From a virus (Duplodnaviria > Heunggongvirae > Uroviricota > Caudoviricetes), in IMG/VR virus record IMGVR_UViG_3300009131_000001, positions 17,814-81,813 of that record: a stretch of DNA of 64,000 bases. One strand, written 5' to 3'. A program made the position numbers and the translations under genes. Below are positions 2,281 to 52,100 of this stretch, one piece after another; position 1 is the first letter of the stretch; every line of letters starts with the position of its first letter. The notes below the pieces were generated by a model. That model was not told the origin of the DNA, did not search any database, and saw only the letters and a program-made list of their open reading frames with translations.

Positions 2281-2324
2281 TGCGTGGCTAAAATTTTTTA
2301 TTGAGCGCAAATAAATAAAATATA

Positions 2325-2360
2325 GGGAAGATATTAATATAGTATCTTCCCTTATTTATT
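2325..2360. terminator. Bidirectional rho-independent terminator between convergent gene blocks
   Basis: Perfect inverted repeat gggaagata/tatcttccc (9 bp) with a 9-nt loop. It is followed by ttatttatt on the plus strand and an A/T run on the minus strand. It lies between the stop at 2280 (+) and the stop at 2359 (-). Confidence 0.6.
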
Positions 2361-3252
2361 AACCACAACTAGAATACCCTCGTACACTACCAGTATTCCC
2401 GCAACTAGAATAATTTGGAACTGTAGGAGATGAATATAAAACATCCATTGGATTGTAAAATTCTACAGGTTTTCCAAAATTCCAATCTTCATATAATATA
2501 CCATCTGGTTGATATATTAATTCATATATAAAGTTTACATGATTAGATGGTTCATTAAGAGAGTACTTGAAATTTACAGGCATTCCCTTAATAAGTTTAC
2601 TATCTAACTTACATACTGGGCAACTATCTTTTCTAATGGACTTTACATTTGAAAATAAGTCATGTAATTTAAAATTATCCAAATTATCTGAATTATAGTT
2701 TTTTCTAAATGTCACAGAAGAAGCCCCAACTTTAAAAGCAAAATCTACATAATCATATAAATATTGTTTATCTCCAAAATTCTCTTCTACTACACAATTT
2801 ATATTAACTGGAATTCCTACATCATTTAATTTCTTACAAATAGTAGTAAGTTTTTTAGTACTTGGAACATCTTTAGTATTAAATATTTTATAGTTTTCTA
2901 TATCATCTATAGAATGTCTAGAAATATTAATATAACGAACCTTATTTTTCAGTATATCTATAACATTTGAAATATTACCCCCATTACTAGTAAGCACTAC
3001 TTTTGGGAAATTATATCTTGAAATAGTTTCTAAAGTAGGTGTAAGAAACTCACTATATGTAGGTTCTCCTCCTGATATTGAACATTGTGTAAATATATCA
3101 GGTAATATACTAAGATAATGGTTAAGTCTAGATAAGTAAGTAACATCTGTATAACTAGGCTTCCAAAAACAAAATCCACAATTAGCATTACATCCTCCAG
3201 GAAGAATTACTGTTAAATTTGGGGATTCTTGTATTGATTTTTTAAGTTTCAT
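2359..3252 (-). CDS. Radical SAM enzyme, viperin/MoaA-like
   Basis: CNANCGFCFW forms a CxxxCxxC motif with an aromatic residue, as in viperin CNYKCGFCFH. SISGGEP is the SAM glycine motif. VVLTSNGG and ISRHSIDDIEN parallel viperin VSIVSNGS and ISCDSFDEEVN. The C-terminus is Cys-rich (CPVC ... SSCG ... SSCG). Confidence 0.7.
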   Translation of the reverse strand: MKLKKSIQESPNLTVILPGGCNANCGFCFWKPSYTDVTYLSRLNHYLSILPDIFTQCSISGGEPTYSEFLTPTLETISRYNFPKVVLTSNGGNISNVIDILKNKVRYINISRHSIDDIENYKIFNTKDVPSTKKLTTICKKLNDVGIPVNINCVVEENFGDKQYLYDYVDFAFKVGASSVTFRKNYNSDNLDNFKLHDLFSNVKSIRKDSCPVCKLDSKLIKGMPVNFKYSLNEPSNHVNFIYELIYQPDGILYEDWNFGKPVEFYNPMDVLYSSPTVPNYSSCGNTGSVRGYSSCG

Positions 3253-3280
3253 ATATAATAATTTTTATTATTTCAATAAT

Positions 3281-3306
3281 AAGGGTACCCATAATAAGGT
3301 ACCCTT
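3281..3306 (-). terminator. Hairpin (possible terminator or regulatory stem-loop) between the HNH gene and the radical SAM gene
   Basis: aagggtacc/ggtaccctt is a perfect 9-bp inverted repeat with an 8-nt loop, and the context is A/T-rich. Confidence 0.3.
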
Positions 3307-3373
3307 AAATATTTAGTTTCACCCCCTGTATAGATAGTTACTCTATCAGATGCTTAAGGTCAGCCTTAACTAT

Positions 3374-3928
3374 TCAGGAATAATCAACAATATCTTTAAT
3401 AAATTTGAATGTTTCTTCTGGGGTAAGACATGCTTTTAAATAGTTAATTGATCTACATACTAAAACAGAGTTTTCTTTTGTATATCCTATTTTAGAATTT
3501 AGTCTATCTATACTCATGGAATATTGAGAATTACTATCTAAACTTAATGGTATATGTGAAAAATAACACAATCCATTTTGTCTATTAAATAATTCCTCAA
3601 TGTAATTTCCATCAAGTTCAAAACATAAATTCTTTTTCTTAGCATTTCCTTTCACCATTGCACATCTACGAAAGAATGGATTTAGCCCTTTTTGCAAAAT
3701 TCCATTTACAAACCATGGGTTTGTAGATTTCTTAATACTCCTTTGACTAGACGTTTTTCTGCATCCGCATGATTTTGTTTTACCAGAAGCTAATCTATAA
3801 ACCGGAACAATTGATGTGTTTCCACAATTACATTGACATAAAAAATAATTTTTATTATTTCTATTGTATGCAAAGTCTACTACTAGCAAATCTCCAAATG
3901 TTTTGTTTATTAAATCTATTTTTTTCAT
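3374..3928 (-). CDS. HNH homing endonuclease (probable start at internal MKKIDL)
   Basis: N-terminal FGDLLVVDF...CQCNCGN...SCGC zinc-finger-like module typical of phage HNH endonucleases. C-terminal SIDRLNSKIGYTKENSVLVCRSINYLK is an HNH motif. Confidence 0.6.
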   Translation of the reverse strand: MKKIDLINKTFGDLLVVDFAYNRNNKNYFLCQCNCGNTSIVPVYRLASGKTKSCGCRKTSSQRSIKKSTNPWFVNGILQKGLNPFFRRCAMVKGNAKKKNLCFELDGNYIEELFNRQNGLCYFSHIPLSLDSNSQYSMSIDRLNSKIGYTKENSVLVCRSINYLKACLTPEETFKFIKDIVDYS

Positions 3929-4024
3929 CTTACTATATTTATTTTTTACAAAAAAACACAATAAAATGCAAAAATCCAAATAATTATTAAATTATATATT
4001 AACTATTAAGGGAGCCACCTCTAA

Positions 4025-4862: not shown

Positions 4863-5471
4863 TTATTCAGTTTTATTTGTTATTAATTCAGACATAGGAA
4901 GAGTTTCTATCCATTTACAGAAATCTTGCCACTCTTGAAGCTTATGATGCTTGCGCTGTGAATAAATAGTTTTAAGTTGAAGATAGTTAGTTGATATACC
5001 CATCCATTTTAAATAACCAGATGGTAAATTCTCAATTATTCTTTTAAAACATATTTCTTTCTCGTCTAAAAATAACGGCGAATTATATGCCCTTATAGAA
5101 CCATTAATCAATTCTATAATACCATCATGTACATTGTTAGTAAAATCATCTTTAGTTAATTCTCTGCTAGTAATTTTATGCATCTTACTCTGAGAACTAA
5201 CAATGTCTACCCAGTGGTATCTTTGTAATTGTGGGCTAAAATATTCAGGATATTGTAGGTCAAATTGAACTATAATTCCTTTAAGGAAATTATTATGTCC
5301 TGAACCACTTGGTGTATTTGCTAGCTTTTTAGCTCTATTAGTATCCCCATTACATATAGATGATATGGCTTCCGACTTATCTAAATCTTTAGGTTCCCCA
5401 ACTTGCATTGGATAACCACTACGAACTAAGCTTTCTGCCAATCCGTAAATTTTTATATTTTTAATTTTCAT
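4863..5471 (-). CDS. Hypothetical protein with a faint ThyX-like resemblance (not supported)
   Basis: 202-aa ORF. GHNNF...IIVQF...QRYHW loosely recalls the ThyX N-terminal region but lacks the RHR motif. Confidence 0.45.
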   Translation of the reverse strand: MKIKNIKIYGLAESLVRSGYPMQVGEPKDLDKSEAISSICNGDTNRAKKLANTPSGSGHNNFLKGIIVQFDLQYPEYFSPQLQRYHWVDIVSSQSKMHKITSRELTKDDFTNNVHDGIIELINGSIRAYNSPLFLDEKEICFKRIIENLPSGYLKWMGISTNYLQLKTIYSQRKHHKLQEWQDFCKWIETLPMSELITNKTE

Positions 5472-6420
5472 GCAATAGTTTAAAAATTACGCCTTTATAT
5501 TTGTTATTGCCTTTATAGGACTTACCAGACTTTAATAGTTTTTCTATTGTTTTTCTATTAATTCCTGTATATTCTGATGTTTTTATTATATTATCAAACT
5601 GTAATATTTGATTATCATATTCAAAGGTAATTGGAACCCATTGTGAAGATTTTGTATTTTTTCTATTAAATTTCTCAATTCTGTATTTATCAAAAGGATC
5701 ATCTGGATATCTCCAAACAAAACCGTATGCAGATAGTACTTTTCCTTTAGAACATCTTACTATAGGTTGATATTTAAATCCAAGGTTCCTCTCTATTTCC
5801 ACAGAACTTGTAAAAGTTTTTATAAAATTTCCATCTATGTCATATTGATTTATTGGTTTAGATATCCTTAAAATATTTTTTTCTGACATTTTCTTTCCAG
5901 TATTGGCAATACTTATCTTAAGTTTTTGCTCTTCAGATAATTTCTTACCTAATCTAGATAAAGACATATTCTTTCGCCATTCAGGTGTTCTTGGTATATT
6001 ACGTAATGATTTTGAAAGTTTATCTATAGTCTCTTTTCTTCTTTTTACTCCTAAACATGATTTTTCTACTATTTTACAAATATTCATATCTGGATTAATG
6101 ATGTCTATATAATGCTGCTCAAATTTCATACATTCTTCTGCATCACAATAATGAATAACATATGCTTTAATATTATAGCATTTATTATAAATATTTTGCA
6201 TGAACACATTATAATGCTTATTTCTATGTAATAACCATTTATGTTGATTTATTCTTTCAGATAATCCTAATTTATTTGCTGTGCTACCAATATACAAATG
6301 ACTACCAATTTTTATTAAATATATACCAGTACTTCTATTTATTTTTTTAACTATTACTTTCCCATTACATTCCTCAATAATTTTCTCTAGTTCTTCTATA
6401 TTTTTTATATTGTTATTCAT
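5461..6420 (-). CDS. GIY-YIG homing endonuclease with NUMOD3/IENR1-like DNA-binding repeats
   Basis: GIYLIKIGSHLYIGST is a GIY-YIG core. NUMOD3-like EEQKLKISIANTGKK and a C-terminal IENR1-like YTGINRKTIEKLLKSGKSYKG are present. Confidence 0.75.
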   Translation of the reverse strand: MNNNIKNIEELEKIIEECNGKVIVKKINRSTGIYLIKIGSHLYIGSTANKLGLSERINQHKWLLHRNKHYNVFMQNIYNKCYNIKAYVIHYCDAEECMKFEQHYIDIINPDMNICKIVEKSCLGVKRRKETIDKLSKSLRNIPRTPEWRKNMSLSRLGKKLSEEQKLKISIANTGKKMSEKNILRISKPINQYDIDGNFIKTFTSSVEIERNLGFKYQPIVRCSKGKVLSAYGFVWRYPDDPFDKYRIEKFNRKNTKSSQWVPITFEYDNQILQFDNIIKTSEYTGINRKTIEKLLKSGKSYKGNNKYKGVIFKLLHEN

Positions 6421-10761: not shown

Positions 10762-11778
10762 CTATCCAATTATATTTTTACCTAATTCATAGTATCTAAA
10801 CTTATGTTCCCAACTGTCATTCTGAATATGCCATTTTAATTCTATAATTAATTCAGGAATAGACGGAATCTTATTATATTTAGGATATAAAACATCCATA
10901 AAATAAGTAGTTTTTTCTGCTTCACCATCTAAAATATCCCTATCTAATACCCAATCAACTAAATCATCACATAACTCATAAACCTCTGGTTTATTTGCTC
11001 CTGTTGTATCAATAGTTACATTGATATATTTATACTCATAATCAGCATATTCAGAGTAATTCTTCTTAAACAATTCCCCATAAAAAGGAGTTTGTAGATA
11101 GTAATGATACTTCCAGAAATTAGATATAAAATTACCCGAATAAGTCTTTACATCTACAATATAGACAATCTTTTCATTCTCATCTACATCTACAATATCA
11201 GGCTTACCTTTACACTCTATTCCCCATAATTCAGCAAATAGTTCTAATTGCTTAAATTGTTTGGTAAAATTTCTAGAATCTAAGTAATATTCAGTAGTTG
11301 GTTCATAGTGTGCAGATGTAATTAGGTTTTCAGCAAATTCTAATGTGTCAGCAGATATTACAGATTTACCTTCCGCTTGAGCAGATTGCATTGTTTCAAC
11401 ATAATCAGAACATCCTTCATAGAATTTCTTAATTACAGTTTCATCTTTTAACCTAGAATCATAATTTACATTATCTCTAGCTTGTAGTATGACTATATTA
11501 CTTGGACTTGTTAGTAATGGATCTGAAGCCAATCTAACATATTCATCTGCTAATGCTAGCATCCCTCCACTAGGTTTATTCCTAACTACTGCAAACTTAT
11601 TATAAACTGGTTCATCACTAGTTAGTAGATGGTCTACAATATTTCCTAATTCAAATCCACTTGAGGATTTATCTTCACCATCTATCATAGCCTTAGCCTC
11701 TTTAGGGGAGGCTATTAGGCTAGATAGTAGCGAATAATTTACTGCTTTACTTTCTTTGTAATTTAATATTTCTCCCAT
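10762..11778 (-). CDS. PD-(D/E)xK (RecB/Cas4-like) nuclease, probable recombination exonuclease
   Basis: GKPDIVDVDENEKIVYIVDVKTYSG gives a D...D/ExK core. A QTPFYGELF Q..Y motif follows. Confidence 0.55.
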   Translation of the reverse strand: MGEILNYKESKAVNYSLLSSLIASPKEAKAMIDGEDKSSSGFELGNIVDHLLTSDEPVYNKFAVVRNKPSGGMLALADEYVRLASDPLLTSPSNIVILQARDNVNYDSRLKDETVIKKFYEGCSDYVETMQSAQAEGKSVISADTLEFAENLITSAHYEPTTEYYLDSRNFTKQFKQLELFAELWGIECKGKPDIVDVDENEKIVYIVDVKTYSGNFISNFWKYHYYLQTPFYGELFKKNYSEYADYEYKYINVTIDTTGANKPEVYELCDDLVDWVLDRDILDGEAEKTTYFMDVLYPKYNKIPSIPELIIELKWHIQNDSWEHKFRYYELGKNIIG

Positions 11779-12332
11779 GGTTGTATTGCTGTATGTAATC
11801 CTAATGTACCCCCCTTATAAAATGTTAGAGGGTTTGATATATAATTATGCATTGCCAATCTTTTTAGAAATTTAGTGCCTATCAAAGAACTTATAGAATT
11901 TCTAATAGTTTTCTCAGTACAATTTAAAAATTTAGCACATTCTTGAATTTGTAAGGAACTAAAAATTATAATTTTAGATTTAGGTTCTTGAAATTCTACC
12001 ATATACATAAATACTTGTAAATCTCTAAGGCTGCTGAATTCAGTCAACCATTCCAATCCTTCAGTTGAATGTACCATAATAAAAGTTTCTTTTTTATCTT
12101 TTTCCCAACTTCTATTATGAATTTCCGAATGACATTTATAACATAGAGTTATTAACAAACTATTATCATATTCCCAAGCATTTCTGCCCTTTATATATTT
12201 AATATGATGTATATTTAATTTATCAATACTTCCACACCTTGTACATTTATAGGAATCTCTTTCTAAAATAGATTGCCTTTTACTTTTCCATTCTTTAGTC
12301 AATAATTGTTTTCTATATTCTTCTTTATTCAT
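11763..12332 (-). CDS. HNH endonuclease
   Basis: CTRCGSIDKLNIHHIKYI...NSLLITLCYKCHSEIH is a classic HNH C..C...HH...N...C..CH motif. Confidence 0.7.
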   Translation of the reverse strand: MNKEEYRKQLLTKEWKSKRQSILERDSYKCTRCGSIDKLNIHHIKYIKGRNAWEYDNSLLITLCYKCHSEIHNRSWEKDKKETFIMVHSTEGLEWLTEFSSLRDLQVFMYMVEFQEPKSKIIIFSSLQIQECAKFLNCTEKTIRNSISSLIGTKFLKRLAMHNYISNPLTFYKGGTLGLHTAIQPWEKY

Positions 12333-26873: not shown

Positions 26874-27131
26874 TTAAAGAGATTTCTCATGTTTCATATC
26901 TAAAATATAACTTCTCTTATCTTGGAGAGTTATTAATATAGATTCTAATTCTTCTTTAATCAAAGGTTCTAATTCACAATTCCATAATTGTTTATTAATA
27001 TCCTGTATATATTCATTTACTTTAAATAGATTGTATCTACTTAAATCTTGTTCATCTATGTAGTATTTAGCCATTAGTGAGTCCAATAAGGTGTTATACA
27101 AGGTTCTGCTTTTAAAGGAATGATAGGACAA
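26874..27131 (-). CDS. hypothetical protein
   Basis: Co-oriented ORF overlapping the polymerase gene's upstream end. Confidence 0.35.
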   Translation of the reverse strand: MSYHSFKSRTLYNTLLDSLMAKYYIDEQDLSRYNLFKVNEYIQDINKQLWNCELEPLIKEELESILITLQDKRSYILDMKHEKSL

Positions 27132-29029
27132 AATGGTTTAGCCCCAGTTTCCATACAATCCTTAAGTATTAATGCCCATTCTTCAGATATATTTACAGGT
27201 ACTTCTAGTAAGGCCTCATCATAAATTAAATCTACAATTTTTACTTTCATAAAATTTCCAGTAGATACTATTTTCCTAAATAAAAGAATCATAGAATATT
27301 TAAGTACTTCAGCCCCAGTTCCTTGAATAGGAAAGTTTAGTGAACTTCTATACATATCCCCCTTAATAGCGTGATATTTCTTCTGTTCCTCTTTAGATAA
27401 ACTATTATATCCCTCTCTATTTATAGTTTCTTGTAATTCCTTTAATCTATTAATATCTGGATACCAATATTTTCTTCTACATATATTATTAAAAGTTATA
27501 TATCCATTTTTAAAAGATGTTTCTGATATATATTTAAAATAATTAGCAATTCCTGGAAATGCGGACATATAAGAATTATAAATTCTCTCTCCTTCATCTA
27601 TAGGAATATTTAAATTATTAGCAATAGTAAATCCATTACCTCCATAAGAGATAGCAAATCTAGCAGATTTAGCATTTTGTCTTAAATCAGGTCGTAACTT
27701 CTTTACCTCTTCTTCGAATATATTCTGTAATTCTTTAGGAAAACACATTTTTGCTACAAAACTATGCCCATCTCTTTTTCTAGTAGTATCTAAATAAAAT
27801 TCAGTTAATACTTTGTCTTGACATTTATTTGCAAAGATGATGTCTTCTTGACCCGAGTAGTCGCAGTCTATCAATATGTTACCTCGCTCTGGTACAAAAC
27901 ATTTCCTAGTATCTTCATCTCTTGGAATATTGAGCATATTAATATATTCTGTATGATTTGCTTTATCCTTACCTCCAGAATACATCCTACCAGTATTTAG
28001 TAATTGTCCAAAATTAGTATGAATTCTACCTGTTACTGGATTTATATGCTTATAGAAGTTTTCTCCATAAGTACTTAATTCCTTTTGAAGTTCTTTATAT
28101 TTGATATATATATTTATTATAGGATATTCATTTGCAAGTTTTCTTATATGTTTTGCCGAAACAGATTCCTTTTCCTCCCCCCTTTCAACAATACTTGTAT
28201 CTATTCCTAAAATATTAAATAAATCAATAACTTGTTTGGAAGAATTCCAATTAATATTTACTCGTATTTCAGTAGAAAACAAATCTAACTGTCGGTCAAT
28301 AAACTTAGTAATATTTAGTCTTAATATTTCATTATTAAGTTCTTTTTCAATTTCTAGAAGTTTTGCTTTGGATTTATTTATTCTTTGTTGCCAAAGATTT
28401 CTATCTAATTTAATTCCACAAAACTCCAAATAAGTGATTACAGGTACAAATAAATTATCTAGTTCAATGGCTTTATAAACATCCCATTCATAAGCCAATT
28501 TCAATTGTTTTCTTTTAATTTCATGCAAAAAAGCTACATCTTTTGCACCATATATTATTACTCTATCAGAAAGTCCTTCTTTATGAATATTTCCTCTAAT
28601 AGTTTTATCTAAAGTTTCACCACAATATCTTTTAACTAAGGCATCAAGAGCCTTTCCATGTAATTTATCATCATTATTATAAAGTATTTGTTCTGCTATA
28701 TAAGTATCATAAACTTTCATAGGAATGATACCTTTAATATATAACCATCTTATATCAAACTTTAGGTGTTGCCCTATAATTAATTTATTTTCTATAAGTT
28801 CTTTATAATATTTATCTATAGGAATCTCTTGAGTATTTATTACAAACTGATTAGTTTCATCTCCTAACTGAAGTGATAAAGTCTGTTTAGTATAAACATC
28901 AAATCCAGTAGTTTCAAAATCTAATCCAATTTCATCTAATTTATTTAAATACTCTAAACTATCTTCTACAGAACACCATTTAATTTTATCACTATCAAAT
29001 AATCTTTTACTTCCTACATAATAGTACAT
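27074..29029 (-). CDS. DNA polymerase, family A (Pol I/T7 gp5-like) with 3'-5' exonuclease domain
   Basis: Exo I GLDFETTG; motif A DCDYSGQEDII; motif B RQNAKSARFAISYGG; motif C IYDEALLEV. Confidence 0.85.
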   Translation of the reverse strand: MYYYVGSKRLFDSDKIKWCSVEDSLEYLNKLDEIGLDFETTGFDVYTKQTLSLQLGDETNQFVINTQEIPIDKYYKELIENKLIIGQHLKFDIRWLYIKGIIPMKVYDTYIAEQILYNNDDKLHGKALDALVKRYCGETLDKTIRGNIHKEGLSDRVIIYGAKDVAFLHEIKRKQLKLAYEWDVYKAIELDNLFVPVITYLEFCGIKLDRNLWQQRINKSKAKLLEIEKELNNEILRLNITKFIDRQLDLFSTEIRVNINWNSSKQVIDLFNILGIDTSIVERGEEKESVSAKHIRKLANEYPIINIYIKYKELQKELSTYGENFYKHINPVTGRIHTNFGQLLNTGRMYSGGKDKANHTEYINMLNIPRDEDTRKCFVPERGNILIDCDYSGQEDIIFANKCQDKVLTEFYLDTTRKRDGHSFVAKMCFPKELQNIFEEEVKKLRPDLRQNAKSARFAISYGGNGFTIANNLNIPIDEGERIYNSYMSAFPGIANYFKYISETSFKNGYITFNNICRRKYWYPDINRLKELQETINREGYNSLSKEEQKKYHAIKGDMYRSSLNFPIQGTGAEVLKYSMILLFRKIVSTGNFMKVKIVDLIYDEALLEVPVNISEEWALILKDCMETGAKPFCPIIPLKAEPCITPYWTH

Positions 29030-31555: not shown

Positions 31556-32416
31556 CTATTTATTCATATTCATAATAATACCTTGTCCAGAACCTAGCAT
31601 TGTTTCTGGCAATTTACCATTCCACTTTTGAATCCATTGTTGTTGTACCAATAAGGCATTTAAAGTAGTTTGTTTCAATCTATTAGCTTCTGCTTCTGCT
31701 CTAGCAATTGCAAGAAGTGCTTTAGCTTTACCTTCTGCTTGCGCTACTTCAATAGCTGCCTGTGCTTCAGCAGTTCTCTTTTCATTTTCAGCTTTTTGCG
31801 CTAATTGCGTTGCTTGTACTTTACTATTAAGAGCCTCTTGAACAGATTGCGGAATTCTCACAGAACCTATTAAATATAGATTATCTATAAATATTCCACT
31901 AGGCATTAGTTGATTTTTTACTATAATTTTTACAGTATCAATCATTTTAGACTTTCCTGCTCCATATACAGATTCTACAGGCATTGTAGAAGCTACTTTA
32001 TTTAATGCATCTCTGATTGAATTCCTAACAACTACTGCCCTAATTTCATCAACCCCTTTTCTATAAGTTTGAAACATTTTAGCAATACTAGCTTGTTCAA
32101 AATGCATTGAAACTCCTAAATCAGCAGAGCATTCCATACCTTCAACTGTCTGAAATACAAACTGCTCATTAGCAGGAGAGCCTTCATCTGATGAAGATGT
32201 ATACGTATAGTTTACCTGAAATGTAGGAAATGTAAATAATTCAGTATTAATTCCGATATAATATCTACCGGGGCCTACTACTTCATCATCAACTCCTTTA
32301 TCAGAACCTAACATATTAACCTTAATTCCTGCATAGCCAGATTCTACCTTATCCATACAAGATGTAAAGAATGTTACGCACATCCCAAAAACTAAAAATA
32401 AACTTACTTTTCTCAT
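31556..32416 (-). CDS. SPFH/band-7 (prohibitin/HflKC-like) lipoprotein
   Basis: Signal peptide plus lipobox FFTSC. The SPFH core is ...VVVRNSIRDALNKVASTMPVESVYG.... The C-terminus is an Ala/Glu-rich coiled coil (AEAQAAIEVAQAEGKAKALLAIARAEAEANRLKQ) typical of band-7 proteins. Confidence 0.65.
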   Translation of the reverse strand: MRKVSLFLVFGMCVTFFTSCMDKVESGYAGIKVNMLGSDKGVDDEVVGPGRYYIGINTELFTFPTFQVNYTYTSSSDEGSPANEQFVFQTVEGMECSADLGVSMHFEQASIAKMFQTYRKGVDEIRAVVVRNSIRDALNKVASTMPVESVYGAGKSKMIDTVKIIVKNQLMPSGIFIDNLYLIGSVRIPQSVQEALNSKVQATQLAQKAENEKRTAEAQAAIEVAQAEGKAKALLAIARAEAEANRLKQTTLNALLVQQQWIQKWNGKLPETMLGSGQGIIMNMNK

Positions 32417-40720: not shown

Positions 40721-41200
40721 ATGCAGTTAGAGAAAATTGTAGAAACTGAACATGGGTTTGTAGACCCTGAAACTGGAGAAGTTATTTCTTCATCCTTTAC
40801 TAATACAAAGCATATCATAAAGAAGAAGACTACTTTTGATAATTTTGTGCAGGTATATATTAGAGATTTGGCAGATATTTATAGGATTACTAGTAGAACT
40901 CAGATTGCTCTTCTAATGGTACTATGTGAAGAATCTAAAATGATTTTAAGTAATTCAGATATTCTTCCGACATTTACTGCTCTTATTGATGATAAGCAAA
41001 GATGGGCAGAGAAGTTACAAATAAATGCAGGAAAGAATGTGGATAATGCCCTAGCTGAATTGGTTAAAAAAAATATTGTACTTAGAATAAGTAGAGGCAA
41101 ATATTCTTTAAACCCTAAGTATATATTCTCAGGAGCATTAAAGGATAGACCTAAAATGCTTGAACTATGTGTGAAATATGAAATATCAGAATCTGTATAA
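40721..41200 (+). CDS. putative winged-helix DNA-binding regulator (paralog of 12371..12886); first gene of the rightward block
   Basis: DPETGEVISSSFTN...; ALAELVKKNIVLRISRGKYSLNPKYIFSG wHTH-like segment. Confidence 0.5.
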   Translation: MQLEKIVETEHGFVDPETGEVISSSFTNTKHIIKKKTTFDNFVQVYIRDLADIYRITSRTQIALLMVLCEESKMILSNSDILPTFTALIDDKQRWAEKLQINAGKNVDNALAELVKKNIVLRISRGKYSLNPKYIFSGALKDRPKMLELCVKYEISESV

Positions 41201-44004: not shown

Positions 44005-45000
44005 ATGGGTAGAGTAAGAAAAATAGGAGTCTATAAAATTACTTGTAATATTACTGGAATGTCTTATATAGGACAGAGTAATGATGTTTATAGAAGATTG
44101 AGATTTTATAAATCTCTGAGATGTAGGCAACAACCAAGAATTTACAGATCTCTATCTAAGTATGGCATAGATAATCACATATTTACAATCATTTGGGAAT
44201 CTACCTATAGTAGTAAACACATAATATTACAAAAGGACACTCTTAATATTTTGGAAAAATTTTACATATTTAAATATAATACCCTATCTCCCAATGGGTT
44301 AAATTTGTATTCTGGAGGAGATTCTTATACAGCATCTGAAGAAACTAGACTTAAATTAAGTAAATCTAAAAGTGGTATAAATCATCCAATGTATGGAAAG
44401 ATTGGAAAATTAAATCCAGCATCAAAGGAGGTTGTGCAATTAAGTAAAGATGGAGAGTTTATAAAAGATTGGGAATCTGCAACTGTTGCAGAAAAGACTT
44501 TAAATATAGCTAGAGATTTAGTATCAGCATGTTGTAGAGAAGATAGATATAGTACTAATGGGTATATATGGATGTGGAAAGCAGATTTTGATACTTACGG
44601 GCCAAAAATATACAAATTACCAAAAAGAAAAGATAGTCTATCAAAGAAGACTTATCAATATGATTTACAAGGTAAATATTTAAGAGAGTGGAATTCTACT
44701 ATGGATATAGAAAGAGAACTTAATATTGCAAATACATCTATAAGTAATGTATGCACAAATCAAAAAGGACAGGCTGGAGGATTTCAATGGAGATACTTTA
44801 TAAATGAAAATGGTATAAATGAATATATTACTAAGGGATTTCATGTAGTAGTTACAGATATAGATACAGGACTAATTCAAGAGTTTGAAAGTCTAGCTAA
44901 AATAAGTAAGACCTTTAAAATAAAGTGGTATATAATTAAAGAATGTTGCGAAGGTATTAGGAAATATTATAAAAATTATAAATTTAGTTATAAATATTAA
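44005..45000 (+). CDS. GIY-YIG homing endonuclease with NUMOD-type DNA-binding repeats
   Basis: GVYKITCNITGMSYIGQS is a GIY-YIG core. NUMOD3-like TRLKLSKSKSGINHPMYGK. Repeated IENR1/NUMOD1-like segments (KEVVQLSKDGEFIKDWESATVAEKTLNIA; LREWNSTMDIERELNIANTSISNVC). Confidence 0.7.
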   Translation: MGRVRKIGVYKITCNITGMSYIGQSNDVYRRLRFYKSLRCRQQPRIYRSLSKYGIDNHIFTIIWESTYSSKHIILQKDTLNILEKFYIFKYNTLSPNGLNLYSGGDSYTASEETRLKLSKSKSGINHPMYGKIGKLNPASKEVVQLSKDGEFIKDWESATVAEKTLNIARDLVSACCREDRYSTNGYIWMWKADFDTYGPKIYKLPKRKDSLSKKTYQYDLQGKYLREWNSTMDIERELNIANTSISNVCTNQKGQAGGFQWRYFINENGINEYITKGFHVVVTDIDTGLIQEFESLAKISKTFKIKWYIIKECCEGIRKYYKNYKFSYKY

Positions 45001-45901: not shown

Positions 45902-46095
45902 TGTTTATTATAAGATTTCATTTTAGAAATGTAGACGAATCTATAGATTTTATAGAACAATCCAAATCTATGTTAGAAGGATTTGACTATAAGATTAATA
46001 TAGAGGATAACGGTAAAATAGTTAAAGTTGAAATATTAAAACTAAAAGATAAAGTAATATGGGAAGTAAAAGGAAAGTGTTTTTATATGAACTAG
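45901..46095 (+). CDS. hypothetical protein
   Basis: 64-aa ORF with ATGA-type overlap. Confidence 0.35.
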   Translation: MFIIRFHFRNVDESIDFIEQSKSMLEGFDYKINIEDNGKIVKVEILKLKDKVIWEVKGKCFYMN

Positions 46096-47312
46096 CAACT
46101 GGTAAGACTATAGAATTTAATAGTCAGACTTCTGCTGGAGAGTTTTTACATGTTAGTGAAGCAACAATACGTAAGTATAATAATACTCTTAAAGAGATTG
46201 ATGGGTATAGAATATATAGTGGAGATAAAGTAGCACTTGCTGGAGAATCCTTATTAAATAGTATTAATGACCATAAAGAAACAAATGAAAACATTAATAC
46301 TAATGAGTTGGATTCAAGGATAAGTGAATTAGGTTATTCTAAATCTGATATACAGTCTGTTAAAACTTGGCAAACCCAGAAAGGTGAGACTAGATTTAGT
46401 ATTGTAACTAAACCAGATCAAGTTAATTCTGAAGAATTCCTGGAGAATCTTAAGAATAAGTTATCTGAATCCGTCAAACCATTTGAGATTCAACTTACAC
46501 CTGCTAAAGTTAGTGGGGTAGATTTAATAGTTTATACTTCAGATAAGCATGTTGGGGCTTGTAGTAAAGATTCTCAATATAATAATGAGTATAATGAGAT
46601 GGAATTTACTCGTAGAATGCAACAAATCTATCAAGAAATTGCATATGTAAAATTTGAATTTGGGCATATTAATAGTCTAATATTTATTGATTTAGGGGAT
46701 AATCTTGATGGGTATAATGCTCAAACTACTAGAGGTAATCATCCACTACCCCAGAATATGACTGATGAGGAATCATTTGATACTTATGTAAATGTACATA
46801 AGATATTCTTTGATAGTTTGGTAGAAAATAGTATGGCTAGTGAGTATAAGGCATACTTTGTAAATGATAGTAATCACTCTGGAAGTTTCGGATATACTGC
46901 AAATAGGGCATTGGAGATTTATCTTAATGTTAAGTTTCCATTCATAGAAACTATTCAGATGAATAAGTTTATGGAACATTTTATTCTAGGAGATGATTGC
47001 TATATTCTATGTCATGGTAAAGACAAGATTGATAGAAAGAATGGATTACCATTACATCTTAACGATGGTACTTATAAGTTAATATCTGACTACATTGACT
47101 ATAATAAGTTACATAATTATAACGTACATTTTGTAAAGGGGGATTTACACCAGAGTGCTTTTGAAAAGAATAGTAAGTTTACTTATAGGAATATACCTAG
47201 TGTATATGGTGCTAGTAAGTGGATTATGAATAACTTTGGATTGAATAAGCCTGGATTCTCAATGGATGTTTATCATATGGGGAATATTTATAGAAGAGAT
47301 ATTGAACTTTAA
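46059..47312 (+). CDS. calcineurin-like metallophosphoesterase with an N-terminal NUMOD1/IENR1-like DNA-binding module
   Basis: MPP motifs in order: DKHVG (D.H), GDNLDG (GDxxD), NDSNHSG (GNH-like), CHGKD (GH), GDLHQS. The N-terminal YELATGKTIEFNSQTSAGEFLHVSEATIRKY resembles homing-endonuclease DNA-binding repeats. Confidence 0.65.
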   Translation: MGSKRKVFLYELATGKTIEFNSQTSAGEFLHVSEATIRKYNNTLKEIDGYRIYSGDKVALAGESLLNSINDHKETNENINTNELDSRISELGYSKSDIQSVKTWQTQKGETRFSIVTKPDQVNSEEFLENLKNKLSESVKPFEIQLTPAKVSGVDLIVYTSDKHVGACSKDSQYNNEYNEMEFTRRMQQIYQEIAYVKFEFGHINSLIFIDLGDNLDGYNAQTTRGNHPLPQNMTDEESFDTYVNVHKIFFDSLVENSMASEYKAYFVNDSNHSGSFGYTANRALEIYLNVKFPFIETIQMNKFMEHFILGDDCYILCHGKDKIDRKNGLPLHLNDGTYKLISDYIDYNKLHNYNVHFVKGDLHQSAFEKNSKFTYRNIPSVYGASKWIMNNFGLNKPGFSMDVYHMGNIYRRDIEL

Positions 47313-49122: not shown

Positions 49123-52100
49123 ATGGATTATACCAAACTAAATAAGTATCAAACATTAATAACTCCAGAACTAGAAAAGTCTTTACCTAAAGAAGTTTAT
49201 GCAGAACTTATCAATACTATTGATACTATTCCTTTTGTTAATTGGTTAGTACAACCTGAAGAAGTTAGGGGATTTGCTAAAGATAGGGTTAGGCATAAAG
49301 ATTTAGATGATTCTGATGAAAGAAAGCAATATGATGATAATAGGATAGTTGTAGATGTAACTAAACCTCATATACTTGAGGATATGGATTTCTTTAGGGA
49401 AAGGGCTATATTCTTTGATAAGTATGGATGTTATACAGATTTAACTCCTAATCCTAATCCTAATAGTGATTACGCTTTATTTTGGAAGGAAGAAATTAGA
49501 AGGTGGAAGGATGGATTAATTAAACCTAGTGATGGAGAATGGATTCCAGGAGGATTGTACTTTTATTGGAATTATTGTCCAATATGGCAAACCCAAACTG
49601 ACAGTATAACTATAAAAGGTAGAACTAAATCTAGGGCTAAACGTGTTAAAAAATTCCCTAAACCTTGGTTAGGAGATTATTTATTTTATCATTATATAGA
49701 ACAGGCTCAAGAATATGCACTACATGGTAAACTTCTAAAATGTCGTGGCGTTGGATTTAGCTTTAAAATGGGGAGTTTATCTCCTAGAAATATGTATGTG
49801 TATCAAGGTGAAGGAAATCCTAATTTCCATTTGGCTAGTGATAAAGGATTTTTACAGGGTGATAAGGGAGTATATAGTAAAGTAATCACTGTATTAGACT
49901 GGATTGCAGATACTACCCCACTCCCAAAATTAAGACTTGTGAATAGTGCTAGAAGTATGGAAATTAAACTGGGCTATCAAGATGAATATGGGGTAAATAG
50001 AGGCCCTCAGTCTAGTGTATTTGGTATATCTCTTAAGGATAATCCGGATAAGGCTCGGGGTATTCGCGGGCCTTTAGTCCATTATGAGGAAGATGGGCTA
50101 TTTCCTAATCTAGAAGATGCATGGAATATTAATCTTAAATCTGTAGAGGATGGTGACGAATCATTTGGTTTTCAATTAGCTGGCGGGTGTTTAACTGAAA
50201 ATAATTATGTATGGACTCATAATGGAAGTCTAAAAAGAATTAAAGATCTTAAAGTATCTGATGGTATAATAGGATTTAATAATGATAATCAAACTTTTAC
50301 TAAAGAACCTATTACTTATTTACAACCTACTATTAATAAACCTTGTTTGAGAATAGAAACTAATACTGGAAGATTTATTGAATGCAGTACAGATCATCCT
50401 ATACTGTACAGTCATTCTTTACTCTTTAAAAGAGAAGAACTACCTTCAGTAAATGGTAAAAGAAAAAGAAAGACATTTAAAGTAGTATCATTTAATCCTG
50501 CAAATAATTTAGTAATAGGAGACCAAGTAGCAACATTAGATCAGTTTCCCATATTTTCAGACATAGATATGTGGAATCCCAGACTAGTTGGATGGTTAGT
50601 AGGTGATGGTAGTTATGGTATAGATAAGACTCCAGTATTATCTAATTGTGAAGATGAGATAAATAGTTGGTTACATAATAATTTTAAAGATGATGTAACT
50701 ACAGAAAAATCATATATAACTAAGGATGGTAAAACTTATGAAGAAAATAGAATAAAAGGTATCACTAAAGAATTACGTAAGTTAGGGATATATGGACAAA
50801 CCAAATCAAATAAAAGACTTCCAATAGACATACATAATTACTCATTGAACACAGTCACGGAGTTTATAGGGGGATTTTATGATACTGATGGATATATTTC
50901 AAATACAGGTAGAGTTTCTTTATCCTCAGGACATAAAGAAATCTTGTTAGAAATGCAATTGTTATTACAAAAATTAGGTATTCATGGAAATATTATGTAT
51001 GTTAAACCAAATTTTAAAAACCCAAAAAGTAAAAATGGACATTATAATCTAGAAGTAGCAGATAGAGATAGTTTATTAAATTTTCAAAAGCACATAAAAC
51101 TATCTCCTAAAGTAAAAGCAGAAAGACTTGCTAATATTCATAATTTATATAAAAGTAAATCTCAACGTGCAAAACATCTTTCTGGAGTAAGATTTGAAAG
51201 AGTAGTTAAGATTGAGAATATAGGTATTCAACCTGTTTATAATTTAACTGCTGGAGAAACACATACTTATGTAGGAAATGGAATTATTACTCACAATACA
51301 GGAGGTACAGAAGGGGCTAGTTTTGAGGGTTCTGAGAAACTATTTTATCATCCAGATGCCTATAATATATACGGAATAAGTAACGTATATGATAGAAATG
51401 TAAATTCTGATTTAAAGTGTGGTTTCTTCTGGGGAGCATACTTAAATAGAAATAAGTGCTATGATTTAGATACAGGAGAACCTGATGTAATAAAGGCATT
51501 GTGTCAAATTTTACAAAATAGGTATAAAGTAAAAAATAATTCTACAGACCCCAAAGCAATTACTCAAAAAAAGGCCGAAGAACCTATTACTCCACAAGAG
51601 GCTATCATGCGTAGGGAGGGGAATATATTTCCTGCTGAAGATATTAAGAACTATCTTGCTGAAATAATGCCTAACTTCCAAAACTTTGTTAGTAGTCACT
51701 ATGTAGGCAAACTAGTTATTAATACTTCTGGAGATGTAGAGTGGAAACTAAATGAAGGTAACTTATACCCTATTAGGGATTTTCCATTTTTAGATGGTAA
51801 TAAAGAAGGTGCTGTAGAAATATATGAAATGCCTAAAAGATTTGGTAATGGGGAAATTCCTGTTGGTAGGTATATTTGTGGTATAGACCCCTATGACGAT
51901 GAAACTGGTACTTCATTAGGCAGTATATTTGTATTTGATAGGTGGAGTAGATGTATAGTTGCAGAGTATACTGGTAGACCTAGATTTGCAGATGAATTCT
52001 ATGAGATTTGCTATAGATTAGCCAAGTATTACAATGCAATGATAATGTATGAGAATAATAAGAAAGGATTATTTGTATATTTTAGAAATAAGAATATACT

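What the first reader, a model, noticed from the sequence alone, without database searches (positions are those of the whole stretch)
2359..3252. Phage-encoded viperin-like radical SAM enzyme at the distal end of the early block
The 297-aa protein carries CNANCGFCFW, which matches the animal and prokaryotic viperin (pVip) signature CNYKCGFCFH. SGGEP, SNG and ISxxSxDxxxN elements follow in the same order as in viperin and MoaA. Viperins make chain-terminating ddh-nucleotides and are normally antiviral, so a copy in a virulent phage genome is unexpected. It could act in host shutoff, inter-phage competition or nucleotide modification. It sits beside an HNH homing endonuclease, which may explain its mobility. 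The C-terminal Cys pairs (CPVC, SSCG x2) may indicate an auxiliary cluster not found in canonical viperins.
Basis: partly seen in the sequence, partly recalled or inferred. Interest (0 to 1): 0.7.

Follow-up and report, generated by a model that had tools for sequence, protein, structure and literature searches.

The report
Phage radical-SAM enzyme with Cys-Gly tail
This gene in a crAss-like phage is a real radical SAM enzyme but not a viperin: it belongs to a large, uncharacterised, almost entirely phage-borne family whose hallmark is a short Cys-Gly-repeat peptide, either fused to the enzyme's end or encoded as a tiny gene next to it, that probably serves as the enzyme's own substrate or thiol partner.

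Summary
It is a genuine radical SAM (rSAM) enzyme in a crAss-like phage, next to an HNH endonuclease. The viperin assignment fails. MoaA and viperin tie in every comparison, always far below curated cutoffs and only over the rSAM core (residues ~20-175). The C-terminal third is not viperin's helical extension. It is an antiparallel beta-sheet with an invariant CPxC hairpin, followed by a flexible tail ending in paired [G/S]-C-G motifs. The protein belongs to an uncharacterised family: 375 clusters at 50% identity, 229 IMG/VR loci, and almost none in cellular genomes. There is no conserved neighbour gene. About 82% of members carry the Cys-pair tail, whose last Cys lies within three residues of the C-terminus. 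In most tail-less members examined, the same peptide is a separate, Shine-Dalgarno-led mini-ORF abutting the gene. A sister clade lacks both CPxC and peptide. Best reading (~0.4): an enzyme plus dedicated-peptide unit resembling a RiPP (ribosomal, post-translationally modified peptide) system, usually fused. Main rival (~0.3): the peptide is an RNR/TrxR-style thiol relay. ddhNTP synthesis is unlikely (~0.07).

The parts
2359..3252 (-). Complete ORF, 297 aa plus stop: radical SAM enzyme with a fused Cys-Gly tail
   Evidence: An identical protein (P0001) lies on a 99.7-kb metagenomic contig.
3169..3192 (-). CX3CX2C motif (C21, C25, C28) that ligates the radical SAM [4Fe-4S] cluster
   Evidence: Invariant in 63 of 63 aligned members. 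Lies within the Pfam Radical_SAM match.
3061..3075 (-). SGGEP (residues 60-64), the SAM-binding GGE motif
   Evidence: G61, G62 and E63 are invariant. Aligns to the GGEP of MoaA and viperin.
2914..2928 (-). N109-I-S111-R112-H113 on strand beta4. N, S and R are family-wide. H113 is specific to the CPxC clade.
   Evidence: Counts of 195: N 195, S 195, R 187, H 192. H113 is replaced by A, T, S or P in the sister clade that lacks CxxC and the tail.
2701..2709 (-). F182-R183-K184 on strand beta6. R183 is the only conserved basic residue shared in position with the beta6 Arg/Lys of MoaA and viperin.
   Evidence: R183 in 194 of 195 members. Its positional equivalence is inferred from secondary structure, not from an alignment.
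2482..2697 (-). Family-specific C-terminal domain (residues 186-257): a four-stranded antiparallel beta-sheet carrying E234, E244, D256 and W257
   Evidence: AF2 model: mean pLDDT 92.1, strands 205-211, 214-221, 224-231 and 242-247. No sequence similarity to the MoaA or viperin C-termini above shuffled controls.
2611..2622 (-). C211-P-V-C214 at the beta-hairpin turn. Consensus: C-P-V-C-[R/K]-x7-G223-x4-[W/F]228-K.
   Evidence: C211 in 195 of 195 and C214 in 193 of 195 members. Its presence correlates with the Cys-Gly peptide.
2413..2481 (-). Linker (residues 258-280). The first ~15 residues pack on the core and the rest are flexible.
   Evidence: pLDDT falls from 93 to 71 to 55. Across the family the linker has a median length of 36 aa and is Lys/Glu-rich.
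2362..2412 (-). Cys-Gly module: Y281-SSCG-NTGSVRG-YSSCG297 (C284 and C296), ending the protein
   Evidence: Conserved in homologues of 65-75% identity. The module is detachable as a mini-ORF in other loci.
2324..2352 (.). Hairpin plus U-run terminator shared with the convergent upstream gene
   Evidence: 10-bp stem, z = -4.0
3280..3307 (.). Perfect palindromic hairpin (AAGGGTACC...GGTACCCTT) between the HNH gene and the rSAM gene, unique in the window. Probably terminates the HNH insert.
3374..3979 (-). Neighbouring HNH endonuclease. This is context only and not a conserved partner.
   Evidence: phrog_374 E = 3e-21. Not conserved next to homologues.

Best explanation
Layer 1 (confidence about 0.85). 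The gene is not a viperin or a MoaA. It belongs to a large, uncharacterised and essentially phage-restricted radical SAM (rSAM) family. Three parts define the family: (i) a MoaA/viperin-type (beta-alpha)6 rSAM core, (ii) a beta-sheet C-terminal domain with an invariant CPxC hairpin and a clade-specific His113, and (iii) a dedicated Cys-Gly peptide. The peptide consists of a Lys/Glu-rich linker followed by one or more pairs of [G/S]-C-G motifs 5-9 residues apart, with the last Cys at or within three residues of the chain end. It is fused to the enzyme's C-terminus in about 80% of members. In most of the remainder examined it is a separate, translationally coupled mini-gene abutting the rSAM gene. 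The unit has no other conserved partner gene.

Layer 2 (inferred, confidence about 0.4). The Cys-Gly peptide is the enzyme's own substrate. This would be a RiPP-like maturase/precursor pair that is usually fused, as in the borosins. In the proposed reaction, reductive cleavage of SAM at the C21/C25/C28 cluster gives a 5'-deoxyadenosyl radical. The flexible peptide threads its terminal Cys-Gly pair into the barrel beside the CPxC/His113 site. That site would be either a reduced auxiliary Fe-S site with an open position for the substrate thiolate, as in the sactisynthase CteB, or a catalytic Cys pair. Hydrogen abstraction from the peptide, plausibly at a Gly C-alpha or a Cys C-beta, would then lead to a thioether-type crosslink or an oxidised Cys.

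Shown here: the architecture, its conservation, the fused and split forms, the phage restriction and the absence of partner genes. Inferred: that the peptide enters the active site, the chemistry, and the biological role, which may be host takeover or counter-defence during early or middle infection.
For: Family size and phage restriction.
- 375 representatives at 50% identity score E <= 1e-30.
- There are 229 relatives in IMG/VR.
- Only three close hits occur in 185,579 species-level genomes, all on MAG contigs.
- Cultured members include Erwinia phage Y3 gp274 and Yersinia phage fHe-Yen9-02 gp171, which share the CPSC motif and the Cys tail.

No curated model covers the family.

Tail statistics in 195 members.
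- 159 have at least two tail Cys.
- The last Cys lies within three residues of the C-terminus in 136 of those 159; shuffles give 22 +/- 4.
- CG dipeptides number 327 against 68 +/- 7 in shuffles.
- The last two Cys are 5-9 residues apart in 127 members against 30 +/- 5 in shuffles.

Separability of the peptide.
- 6 of 11 tail-less loci have a same-strand mini-ORF (26-93 aa) with the motif within 700 nt. Two or three more have variant forms.
- The background rate predicts about 0.03 such ORFs per locus.
- Each of the five mini-ORFs at the 3' end of the rSAM gene has its own Shine-Dalgarno sequence and ATG there.

Other support.
- CxxC and the peptide co-occur: 24 loci have both, 8 have CxxC only, 3 have a dubious tail only, and 37 have neither.
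- Long tails contain repeated whole modules with conserved flanks, for example LLExCGG...YSGCGG and FYGSG..STFDSFEY..YECGG, in variable copy number. This is typical of multi-core substrates.
- No conserved neighbour gene appears in 30 dereplicated locus groups.
- Precedents: fused and split enzyme-substrate architectures in borosins (abstracts), and an rSAM-matured repeat peptide in phage-bacterium conflict, the HXS system.
Against: - There is no RRE/PqqD-like leader-binding domain and no complete SPASM or twitch Cys set.
- AlphaFold leaves the tail undocked, with pLDDT 43-55.
- The tails and mini-ORF peptides match no NCBIfam peptide family.
- No protease or exporter is conserved nearby, so a released peptide product is not indicated.
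- A sister clade (phage and Sorangium) keeps most core and C-terminal conserved residues (E234, E244, W257) without CxxC or peptide. This hints at a peptide-independent substrate, with the peptide acting only as an accessory.
- Paired, terminal, Gly/Ser-flanked Cys are equally typical of redox shuttle tails.
- Two of the 11 tail-less loci (L005, L072) have no detectable peptide.
- The sequences are related, so the shuffle statistics overstate independence.
Confidence: 0.4

Rival explanations
1. Thiol relay. The enzyme performs a reductive radical reaction on an unidentified substrate that is not a peptide, possibly a nucleotide. The CPxC pair donates a hydrogen atom and an electron and becomes a disulfide. 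The mobile Cys-pair tail, or the mini-peptide, then re-reduces it. This is how the C-terminal Cys pairs of class I/II ribonucleotide reductase, the GCUG tail of mammalian thioredoxin reductase and the MerA tail work (comparison from my own knowledge).
For: - The Cys come in pairs 5-9 residues apart, flanked by Gly/Ser, at the extreme C-terminus. Counts of 2, 4 and 6 Cys are more common than 3 and 5.
- The tail co-varies with the CPxC hairpin and His113.
- The sister clade keeps the rest of the conserved set without CxxC or tail, which suggests a shared non-peptide substrate.
- The closest folds, MoaA and viperin, act on nucleotides.
- In most members the tail is fused, as redox tails are.
Against: - Free peptides of 26-29 aa with their own Shine-Dalgarno sequence have no precedent as redox shuttles.
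- Tails with up to five modules, conserved flanking sequence and internal positions are not needed for a relay.
- Most Lys/Arg residues that bind triphosphate in MoaA and viperin are absent.
- No rSAM enzyme is known to use such a tail.
Confidence: 0.28
2. Split auxiliary cluster or gating tail, a MoaA-like mechanism. C211 and C214 are what remains of MoaA's C-x2-C-x13-C auxiliary [4Fe-4S] site. A tail Cys supplies the missing ligand, or the tail plugs the active site and gates radical initiation as MoaA's C-terminal Gly-Gly tail does (my own knowledge; Hover and Yokoyama 2015).
For: - The hairpin spacing C211-x11-G223-x4-[W/F]228 equals the twitch/MoaA C-x11-G-x4-C, with an aromatic residue in place of the last Cys.
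- CxxC co-occurs with the tail.
- From my own knowledge, MoaA's tail can act in trans as a peptide.
Against: - The C-terminal profile scores no better against MoaA's C-terminus than against shuffles.
- Multiple repeated modules, variable linkers of 1-137 aa and independently translated mini-peptides are odd for a structural ligand.
- Tail-less, peptide-less members keep CPxC.
- AF2 does not dock the tail.
Confidence: 0.12
3. One reading: a viperin-like enzyme that converts NTPs to chain-terminating ddhNTPs, used by the phage for host shutoff or competition between phages.
For: - The cluster loop CNxxCGFCF is viperin-like.
- Viperins are the top single-sequence PDB hits.
- PADLOC pVip scores 56 bits.
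- Distant Sorangium relatives sit beside a type I-G CRISPR-Cas locus together with a P-loop AAA_28 protein. That resembles a defence island.
Against: - The scores fall far below both curated viperin cutoffs: 41 against 180 and 16.6 against 450.
- MoaA ties or wins in every comparison.
- Homology stops at about residue 175. The C-terminal extension and the beta-8 nucleobase loop that define viperins (Shomar et al. preprint) are replaced by a beta-sheet CPxC domain.
- The aligned positions of N77, H79, K120 and K220 are not conserved.
- This reading does not explain the Cys-Gly peptide.
Confidence: 0.07
4. An orthologue of a known phage or cellular radical SAM function. Candidates are MoaA as an auxiliary metabolic gene for molybdenum cofactor synthesis, an NrdG/PflA-type glycyl-radical activase, QueE, or an SPL-like DNA-hypermodification isomerase such as M6 gp53.
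For: - GenBank annotates the Y3 homologue as 'GTP 3',8-cyclase'.
- There are weak NCBIfam hits to MoaA, NrdG2 and QueE.
Against: - All scores are 4- to 20-fold below the curated cutoffs.
- The third auxiliary-cluster Cys and the GG terminus of MoaA are missing.
- No moaB-E, nrdD, queC/D, folE, dpdA, 5-HMUDK or PLP genes were found among the window ORFs scanned or in the neighbourhoods of related loci.
Confidence: 0.03

Closest known systems
MoaA (GTP 3',8-cyclase; PDB 1TV7, 2FB2)
   Same: - Shares the CNxxCxxC, GGEP, TTNG and N-x-S motifs and the beta6 Arg.
- Has a C-terminal beta-domain with a CxxC-x8-G hairpin at the same spacing.
- Has a flexible C-terminal tail of small residues.
   Different: - Identity is only 15-17%, and the score is 41 bits against a cutoff of 284-325.
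- The third auxiliary-cluster Cys is replaced by an invariant Trp/Phe.
- The GTP-binding Lys and Arg (K69, R71, K163 in S. aureus numbering, from my own knowledge) are not conserved.
- The tail ends in Cys or Cys-Gly pairs rather than Gly-Gly.
- There is no molybdenum cofactor gene context, and the family is phage-restricted.
Viperin / prokaryotic pVip (PDB 5VSL, 6Q2P, 7N7H)
   Same: - Nearly identical cluster loop (CNxxCGFCF).
- No full auxiliary cluster.
   Different: - Lacks the C-terminal extension that closes the barrel and the beta-8 nucleobase loop.
- Lacks the aligned N77, H79, K120 and K220.
- Falls below both curated cutoffs.
- Carries a CPxC beta-hairpin and a Cys-Gly peptide, which viperins do not have.
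- Encoded by phages rather than in defence islands.
Twitch/SPASM peptide-modifying radical SAM maturases (SkfB, SuiB, CteB, anSME, YydG/EpeE)
   Same: - The enzyme gene abuts a short peptide gene with a conserved Cys-containing C-terminal core.
- The twitch-type spacing C-x11-G-x4 is present.
- CteB offers a precedent for a substrate Cys binding an open auxiliary-cluster site (my own knowledge).
   Different: - No RRE domain.
- Only two of the three to seven auxiliary Cys are present.
- The peptide is usually fused to the enzyme.
- No protease or transporter genes are nearby.
- The peptide matches no known target family.
- Found in lytic phage genomes.
Borosins (OphMA-type autocatalytic N-methyltransferase-precursor fusions and split borosins)
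   Same: The architectural logic matches. A SAM-dependent enzyme carries its substrate core at its own C-terminus, and related systems encode the peptide separately (abstracts).
   Different: - The enzyme class is unrelated: a methyltransferase, not a radical SAM enzyme.
- The chemistry differs.
- Borosins are not phage-encoded.
- This is an analogy only.
C-terminal Cys-pair redox arms (class I/II RNR alpha subunit, mammalian TrxR GCUG, MerA, DsrC)
   Same: A flexible terminal arm carries two Cys a few residues apart, flanked by small residues, at or next to the chain end.
   Different: - These are not radical SAM enzymes.
- They have single pairs only and are never separate 26-aa peptides.
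- This comparison comes from my own knowledge and was not tested here.

Membership tests
Viperin / pVip | Radical SAM core with CX3CX2C and GGE motifs | tested here: met
Viperin / pVip | Scores above the curated family cutoffs (NF038283 at 180 bits or more; TIGR04278 at 450 bits or more) | tested here: not met
   41.0 and 16.6 bits. The best of 16 family members reaches 57 bits.
Viperin / pVip | Closer to viperins than to the MoaA outgroup | tested here: not met
   [not shown]
Viperin / pVip | C-terminal extension that closes the barrel, with the beta-8-loop nucleobase pocket (mouse C314/K319; Shomar et al.) | tested here: not met
   No alignment extends beyond profile position 175. The C-terminal profile scores no better against the viperin C-terminus than against shuffles. 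The model shows an antiparallel beta-sheet with CPVC instead. This rests on a predicted structure.
Viperin / pVip | NTP triphosphate ligands (mouse N77, H79, K120, K220; their roles are from my own knowledge of Fenwick et al.) | tested here: not met
   The aligned residues are T14, I16, Q56 and a non-basic beta5 residue.
Viperin / pVip | Makes 3'-deoxy-3',4'-didehydro-NTPs | not testable with these tools
   Requires an anaerobic enzyme assay with LC-MS.
MoaA (GTP 3',8-cyclase) | Scores above the curated cutoffs (TIGR02666 at 284; TIGR02668 at 325; NF001199 at 231) | tested here: not met
   36.0, 41.3 and 38.0 bits
MoaA (GTP 3',8-cyclase) | Auxiliary [4Fe-4S] cluster held by three Cys (C-x2-C-x13-C) | tested here: not met
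   CxxC is present at the same spacing, but the third position is W or F in 184 of 195 members (E. coli MoaA sequence).
MoaA (GTP 3',8-cyclase) | C-terminal Gly-Gly end | tested here: not met
   The query ends in ...YSSCG, and the family ends in C, CG or CGx. E. coli MoaA ends in ...SYIGG.
MoaA (GTP 3',8-cyclase) | Molybdenum cofactor gene context (moaB/C/D/E) | tested here: not met
   None appears in the Pfam-listed neighbourhoods of five related loci, and no gene is conserved across 30 locus groups.
Radical SAM RiPP maturase (sacti-/ranthipeptide type) | Co-encoded short peptide with a conserved Cys-containing core next to the enzyme gene | tested here: met
   The peptide is fused in 159 of 195 members. 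An adjacent mini-ORF with its own SD and ATG occurs in 6-9 of 11 tail-less loci, against about 0.03 expected per locus.
Radical SAM RiPP maturase (sacti-/ranthipeptide type) | SPASM or twitch auxiliary-cluster Cys set (three to seven Cys) | tested here: not met
   Only C211 and C214 are conserved in the C-terminal domain.
Radical SAM RiPP maturase (sacti-/ranthipeptide type) | RRE/PqqD-like leader-recognition domain | tested here: not met
   There is no such Pfam hit, and the protein starts at strand beta1.
Radical SAM RiPP maturase (sacti-/ranthipeptide type) | Peptide belongs to a described rSAM-target family (SCIFF, ACGX-repeat, CXXX-repeat, HxS and similar) | tested here: not met
   Ten tails and mini-peptides gave no NCBIfam hit. 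Low-complexity filtering may hide weak matches.
Radical SAM RiPP maturase (sacti-/ranthipeptide type) | Enzyme covalently modifies the peptide | not testable with these tools
   Requires co-expression and MS/MS.

The most novel reading that the evidence does not exclude
Hundreds of large lytic phages carry a self-contained radical SAM enzyme that matures its own C-terminal Cys-Gly peptide. These include crAss-like phages, Erwinia, Yersinia and Dickeya jumbo phages, and many uncultured lineages. It would be the first autocatalytic radical SAM enzyme-substrate fusion, and a phage-specific RiPP-like system. The modified thiol-rich tail or mini-peptide would act during infection, for example as a redox, metal-binding or counter-defence effector.
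Probability: 0.35. Interest if true: 0.8.

Novelty: new variant of a known kind. Interest (0 to 1): 0.62.

Why it matters
Radical SAM genes are common in phage genomes but almost none have a known role. Public records annotate this family as "hypothetical", "MoaA-family" or even "GTP 3',8-cyclase". Here it is shown to be a coherent and abundant family restricted almost entirely to phages, with a diagnostic architecture: an enzyme plus a dedicated Cys-Gly peptide that is either fused or split.

This makes the family directly testable. Cultured members exist (Erwinia phage Y3 gp274, Yersinia phage fHe-Yen9-02 gp171). The split pairs give natural two-component substrates for mass spectrometry.

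If the peptide is the substrate, this would be a new kind of autocatalytic radical SAM/RiPP system and a new class of phage effector. If it is a thiol relay, it would be the first RNR/TrxR-style redox arm on a radical SAM enzyme.

The result also warns against calling viperins from the CNxxCGFCF loop alone.

Tried and rejected
1. A by-eye match between MoaA's auxiliary-cluster segment (FCATCNRLRVSSIGKLHLC) and the CPVC hairpin. A profile of the C-terminal domain scored no better against the MoaA or viperin C-termini than against 500 shuffles. Only the spacing pattern and the structural match remain.
2. A conserved partner gene. All-against-all clustering of ORFs within +/-6 kb in 30 dereplicated locus groups found none. 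The window ORFs scanned include no NrdD, Que, Moco or thymidine-hypermodification genes.
3. Programmed frameshifting or assembly errors as the cause of the split loci. Each mini-ORF has its own Shine-Dalgarno sequence and ATG.
4. A glycyl-radical reading of the C-G motif, as in NrdD's RxCGY. Many tails end in Cys with no Gly after it, there is no structured Gly loop, and PflA/NrdG are weaker matches.
5. Known rSAM-target peptide families. No NCBIfam hit for ten tails and peptides. The Haft and Basu 2011 paper could not be retrieved.
6. The neighbour ORF 4863-5471 looked ThyX-like by eye. It has no Pfam or PDB support, only phrog_6721 of unknown function.
7. Literature searches for phage rSAM, viperin, crAss, jumbo phage, RiPP and fused-core terms found no description of this family.
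8. Tool failures. The search for related loci with the 63-sequence alignment found no conserved stretch. The afdb50 fold library was unavailable. hmmalign of the sister-clade hairpin was inconsistent, so the correspondence between YYYY and CPVC is only suggestive.
Full report
OBSERVATION. All the motifs are present in the stated order: CNANCGFCFW (residues 21-30), SGGEP (60-64), SNG (89-91), ISRHSIDDIEN (110-120), CPVC (211-214) and two YSSCG motifs (281-285 and 293-297, the second ending the protein). Pfam Radical_SAM is significant at 40.2 bits against a cutoff of 29.5. The upstream gene 3374-3979 is an HNH endonuclease (PHROG E = 3e-21).

The gene closes the minus-strand block that holds DNA polymerase A (27074-29029), an SNF2/DEAD-type helicase, AAA_24 and a PD-(D/E)XK nuclease. 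GC skew marks that strand block. The gene ends at a hairpin plus U-run terminator shared with the convergent gene (2324-2352, z = -4.0). A unique perfect palindrome (3280-3307) separates it from the HNH gene. The window is a crAss-like phage: the Crassvirus major capsid protein scores 340.9 bits at 56914-58413. There is no near-identical record in the phage collection. The identical protein lies on a 99.7-kb metagenomic contig.

IS IT A VIPERIN? No. Every comparison gives a tie between MoaA and viperin, far below the family thresholds and confined to the radical SAM (rSAM) core.
- NCBIfam: moaA_archaeal 41.3 bits (cutoff 325), viperin_w_prok 41.0 (cutoff 180), eukaryotic viperin 16.6 (cutoff 450). 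The tie holds across 16 diverse family members, whose best score is 57 bits.
- A 63-sequence family profile against all PDB sequences: MoaA 60.6, viperins at most 56.6, YydG 46.8, all over profile positions ~17-180.
- The same profile scores E. coli MoaA at 47.1 and human viperin at 46.8 bits, both over positions 20-175 only.
- PADLOC's pVip model gives 56 bits but covers only residues 20-157.

Viperins are defined by a C-terminal extension that closes the barrel and carries the beta-8 nucleobase loop (mouse C314/K319; Shomar et al. preprint). Here the region after strand beta6 is a four-stranded antiparallel sheet (205-211, 214-221, 224-231, 242-247) with CPVC at a hairpin turn. It shows no sequence similarity to the viperin or MoaA C-termini above shuffled controls.

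The residues aligned with viperin's N77, H79, K120 and K220 (mouse numbering) are T14, I16, Q56 and a non-basic residue. Their roles in CTP binding are from my own knowledge. The MoaA label is no better. The third auxiliary-cluster Cys, the GG terminus, the curated score and the molybdenum cofactor gene context are all absent.

WHAT IT BELONGS TO. A word-indexed search found 71 relatives, all metagenomic. An exhaustive profile search found 375 representatives at 50% identity with E <= 1e-30. IMG/VR holds 229 relatives. Among 185,579 species-level genomes, only three MAG contigs carry close relatives.

Cultured members are the Erwinia, Dickeya and Yersinia jumbo phages (25-28% identity). Erwinia phage Y3 gp274 is annotated "GTP 3',8-cyclase". 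These proteins add an N-terminal domain of about 95 aa but share the CPSC motif, the E...E...DW block, a Lys-rich linker and a Cys-rich end. PHROGs and NCBIfam have no model for the family. BFVD returns only unnamed phage rSAM proteins.

Invariant or near-invariant positions in 195 members are C21, C25, C28, G61-G62-E63, N90, N109, S111, R112, H113, R183, C211, C214, E234, E244, D256 and W257. Clustering all ORFs within +/-6 kb across 30 dereplicated locus groups found no conserved neighbour. The gene typically sits among small unannotated early-type genes of large phages.

THE CYS-GLY PEPTIDE. The most informative feature is the tail. In 159 of 195 members, the region after W257 is a Lys/Glu-rich linker (median 36 aa, range 1-137) followed by Gly/Ser-rich [G/S]-C-G motifs.
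- The last Cys lies within three residues of the C-terminus in 136 of the 159, and is the terminal residue in 83. Shuffles give 22 +/- 4.
- There are 327 CG dipeptides against 68 +/- 7 in shuffles.
- The last two Cys are 5-9 residues apart in 127 members against 30 +/- 5 in shuffles.
- An aromatic residue at position -3 is enriched threefold, as in YSSCG.
- Cys counts favour 2, 4 and 6.

Long tails repeat whole modules with conserved flanks, for example LLExCGG...YSGCGG, and FYGSG..STFDSFEY..YECGG repeated three times in P0085.

The module is also separable. I examined 11 loci whose rSAM protein lacks the tail. Six of them have a same-strand mini-ORF of 26-93 aa carrying the motif and directly abutting the gene.
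- L064: a 65-aa ORF starting 3 nt after the stop codon, ending ...GCGSGGCGHGSPARSCGSGGC.
- L084: a 60-aa ORF overlapping the stop codon.
- L082, L012 and L140: MW-led peptides of 26-29 aa ending GCGxxxGCG.
- L066: a 93-aa ORF upstream.

Three more loci have variants. The next gene in L141 begins MCGSPSGGCGSPS. L142 has a 76-aa ORF ending ...CNSGYNLCDPRNARGC one gene away. L143 has a 92-aa ORF ending ...EDYSSCR. The background frequency of such ORFs is 41 in 12,880 over 1.03 Mb, which predicts about 0.03 per locus. Each of the five mini-ORFs at the 3' end has a canonical Shine-Dalgarno sequence inside the end of the rSAM gene, 5-9 nt before its own ATG. They are therefore real, translationally coupled genes and not frameshift artefacts.

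Finally, the peptide tracks the CPxC hairpin. Among dereplicated locus proteins, 24 have both CxxC and a tail, 8 have CxxC only, 3 have a dubious tail only, and 37 have neither. His113 follows the same split. The clade with neither feature has a GYYYYVE segment in the hairpin region. It comprises many IMG/VR phages and a relative conserved in all Sorangium chromosomes.

HOW IT MOST LIKELY WORKS. The following is shown: a stand-alone rSAM core, a CPxC/His113 site specific to the peptide-bearing clade, and a dedicated thiol-rich peptide that evolution keeps attached or adjacent. The rest is inferred.

The reading I rank first, at about 0.4, is that the peptide is the enzyme's own substrate. An rSAM gene abutting a short peptide gene with a conserved Cys core is the classical signature of sacti- and ranthipeptide-type maturases. 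Peptide-modifying rSAMs are among the structural neighbours. Module copy number varies as multi-core substrates do. Borosins provide a precedent for fused and split enzyme-substrate architectures. An rSAM-matured repeat peptide already figures in phage-host conflict, in the HXS system. The hairpin has the twitch/MoaA spacing C-x11-G-x4, with an invariant aromatic residue where the last cluster Cys would be. It could therefore hold a reduced auxiliary site with an open position for a substrate thiolate, as in CteB (my own knowledge).

Several observations count against this. There is no RRE domain, no full auxiliary Cys set and no protease or exporter. AF2 leaves the tail undocked. The peptide matches no known target family. 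The sister clade keeps E234, E244 and W257 without any peptide.

The main rival, at about 0.28, is an RNR/TrxR-like thiol relay. In that model CPxC donates a hydrogen atom and an electron to a substrate that is not a peptide, and the terminal Cys pair re-reduces it. This fits the paired, terminal, Gly-flanked Cys and the sister-clade argument. It does not fit the free 26-aa peptides or the multi-module tails.

A split auxiliary cluster or a MoaA-style gating tail gets about 0.12. A genuine ddhNTP synthase gets about 0.07. Known functions (MoaA, NrdG, QueE, SPL-like hypermodification) get about 0.03. The M6 gp53 hypermodification enzyme is SPL-like and always clustered with 5-HMUDK and PLP genes, unlike this family.

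NOVELTY AND VERDICT. No paper in the searchable library describes this family. It is a new variant of a known kind, namely a radical SAM enzyme with a cognate Cys peptide. Its unusual traits are phage restriction, predominant enzyme-peptide fusion, a truncated twitch-like site and the absence of accessory genes. Interest is moderate to high because the family is abundant, mis-annotated and now directly testable with cultured phages and natural split pairs.

Noticed in passing
window 56914-58413 (+), whole window: The window comes from a crAss-like phage. The Crassvirus major capsid protein scores 340.9 bits. GC content is about 28-30%. A minus-strand replication block (2.3-40 kb) and a plus-strand structural block diverge near 40 kb. 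There is no close relative in the 50,697-record phage collection.
   Followed up: partly
window 49123-52512 (+): A 1129-aa ORF carries an intein (Hint/Intein_splicing) with a nested LAGLIDADG homing endonuclease. The host protein was not identified.
   Followed up: no
window 3374-3979, 5461-6420, 11763-12332, 44005-45000, 46059-47312: Homing-endonuclease-type genes are unusually dense here: two HNH, two GIY-YIG/NUMOD and one NUMOD1-only. The HNH gene beside the rSAM gene is bounded by a unique perfect palindrome at 3280-3307.
   Followed up: partly
L016 3100-10548 (Sorangium cellulosum So0157-2); also L013-L028: All Sorangium chromosomes carry a distant full-length relative (24-26% identity) that lacks CPxC and the Cys tail. 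It sits in a cassette of Cas3g, Cas8g (type I-G CRISPR-Cas), a second radical SAM, the relative itself, Methyltransf_24 and an AAA_28 P-loop protein. This may be a defence-island module.
   Followed up: partly
L086-L132 (IMG/VR, many from sample 3300045988): A phage sister clade (110-150 bits to the family profile) has a GYYYYVE segment where the CPVC hairpin would be. It has no His113 and no Cys tail, and ends in an acidic ...EDILLxY motif. hmmalign places YYYY under CPVC in only a few sequences, so the correspondence is suggestive only.
   Followed up: partly
L007 5719-7062 (Erwinia phage Y3 gp274); L008 5737-7131 (Yersinia phage fHe-Yen9-02 gp171): The jumbo-phage members carry an extra N-terminal domain of about 95 aa. 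They lie one to two genes downstream of an RNA 2'-phosphotransferase. Y3 gp274 is annotated 'GTP 3',8-cyclase MoaA' in GenBank, which the membership tests here do not support.
   Followed up: partly
L003 135-7905: In a 181-kb phage contig the family member follows an RNA ligase, a split RtcB, adenylosuccinate synthase, a second unrelated radical SAM (CNFKCPYC, 330 aa) and a GGDEF protein. Downstream lie amidoligase, GATase and RimK-type genes. This RNA-repair and peptide-ligase neighbourhood is not shared by other loci.
   Followed up: no
L141 2334-2555: In one split locus the Cys-Gly pair is at the N-terminus of the downstream 73-aa protein (MCGSPSGGCGSPS...), followed by a helical region. 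This topology is the reverse of all the others.
   Followed up: no
P0013, P0072, P0076, P0079 (family members with long tails): Several long-tailed members add a further globular-looking segment of 60-140 aa after the Cys-Gly modules. It ends in an acidic-Trp motif (...NEENWDN, ...NEEEW, ...GEENWD, ...VEWDEDI). Its function is unknown.
   Followed up: no
window 4863-5471 (-): A 202-aa ORF matches phrog_6721 (E = 7e-55, unknown function). By eye it has a ThyX-like ...QLQRYHW..SSQSKMH segment, but there is no Pfam or PDB support.
   Followed up: partly
window 31556-32416 (-), 40721-41200 (+): An SPFH/Band-7 protein lies within the replication block. A RepL-like protein sits at the start of the plus-strand block, and RepL-like ORFs also appear in L001 and L002.
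   Followed up: no
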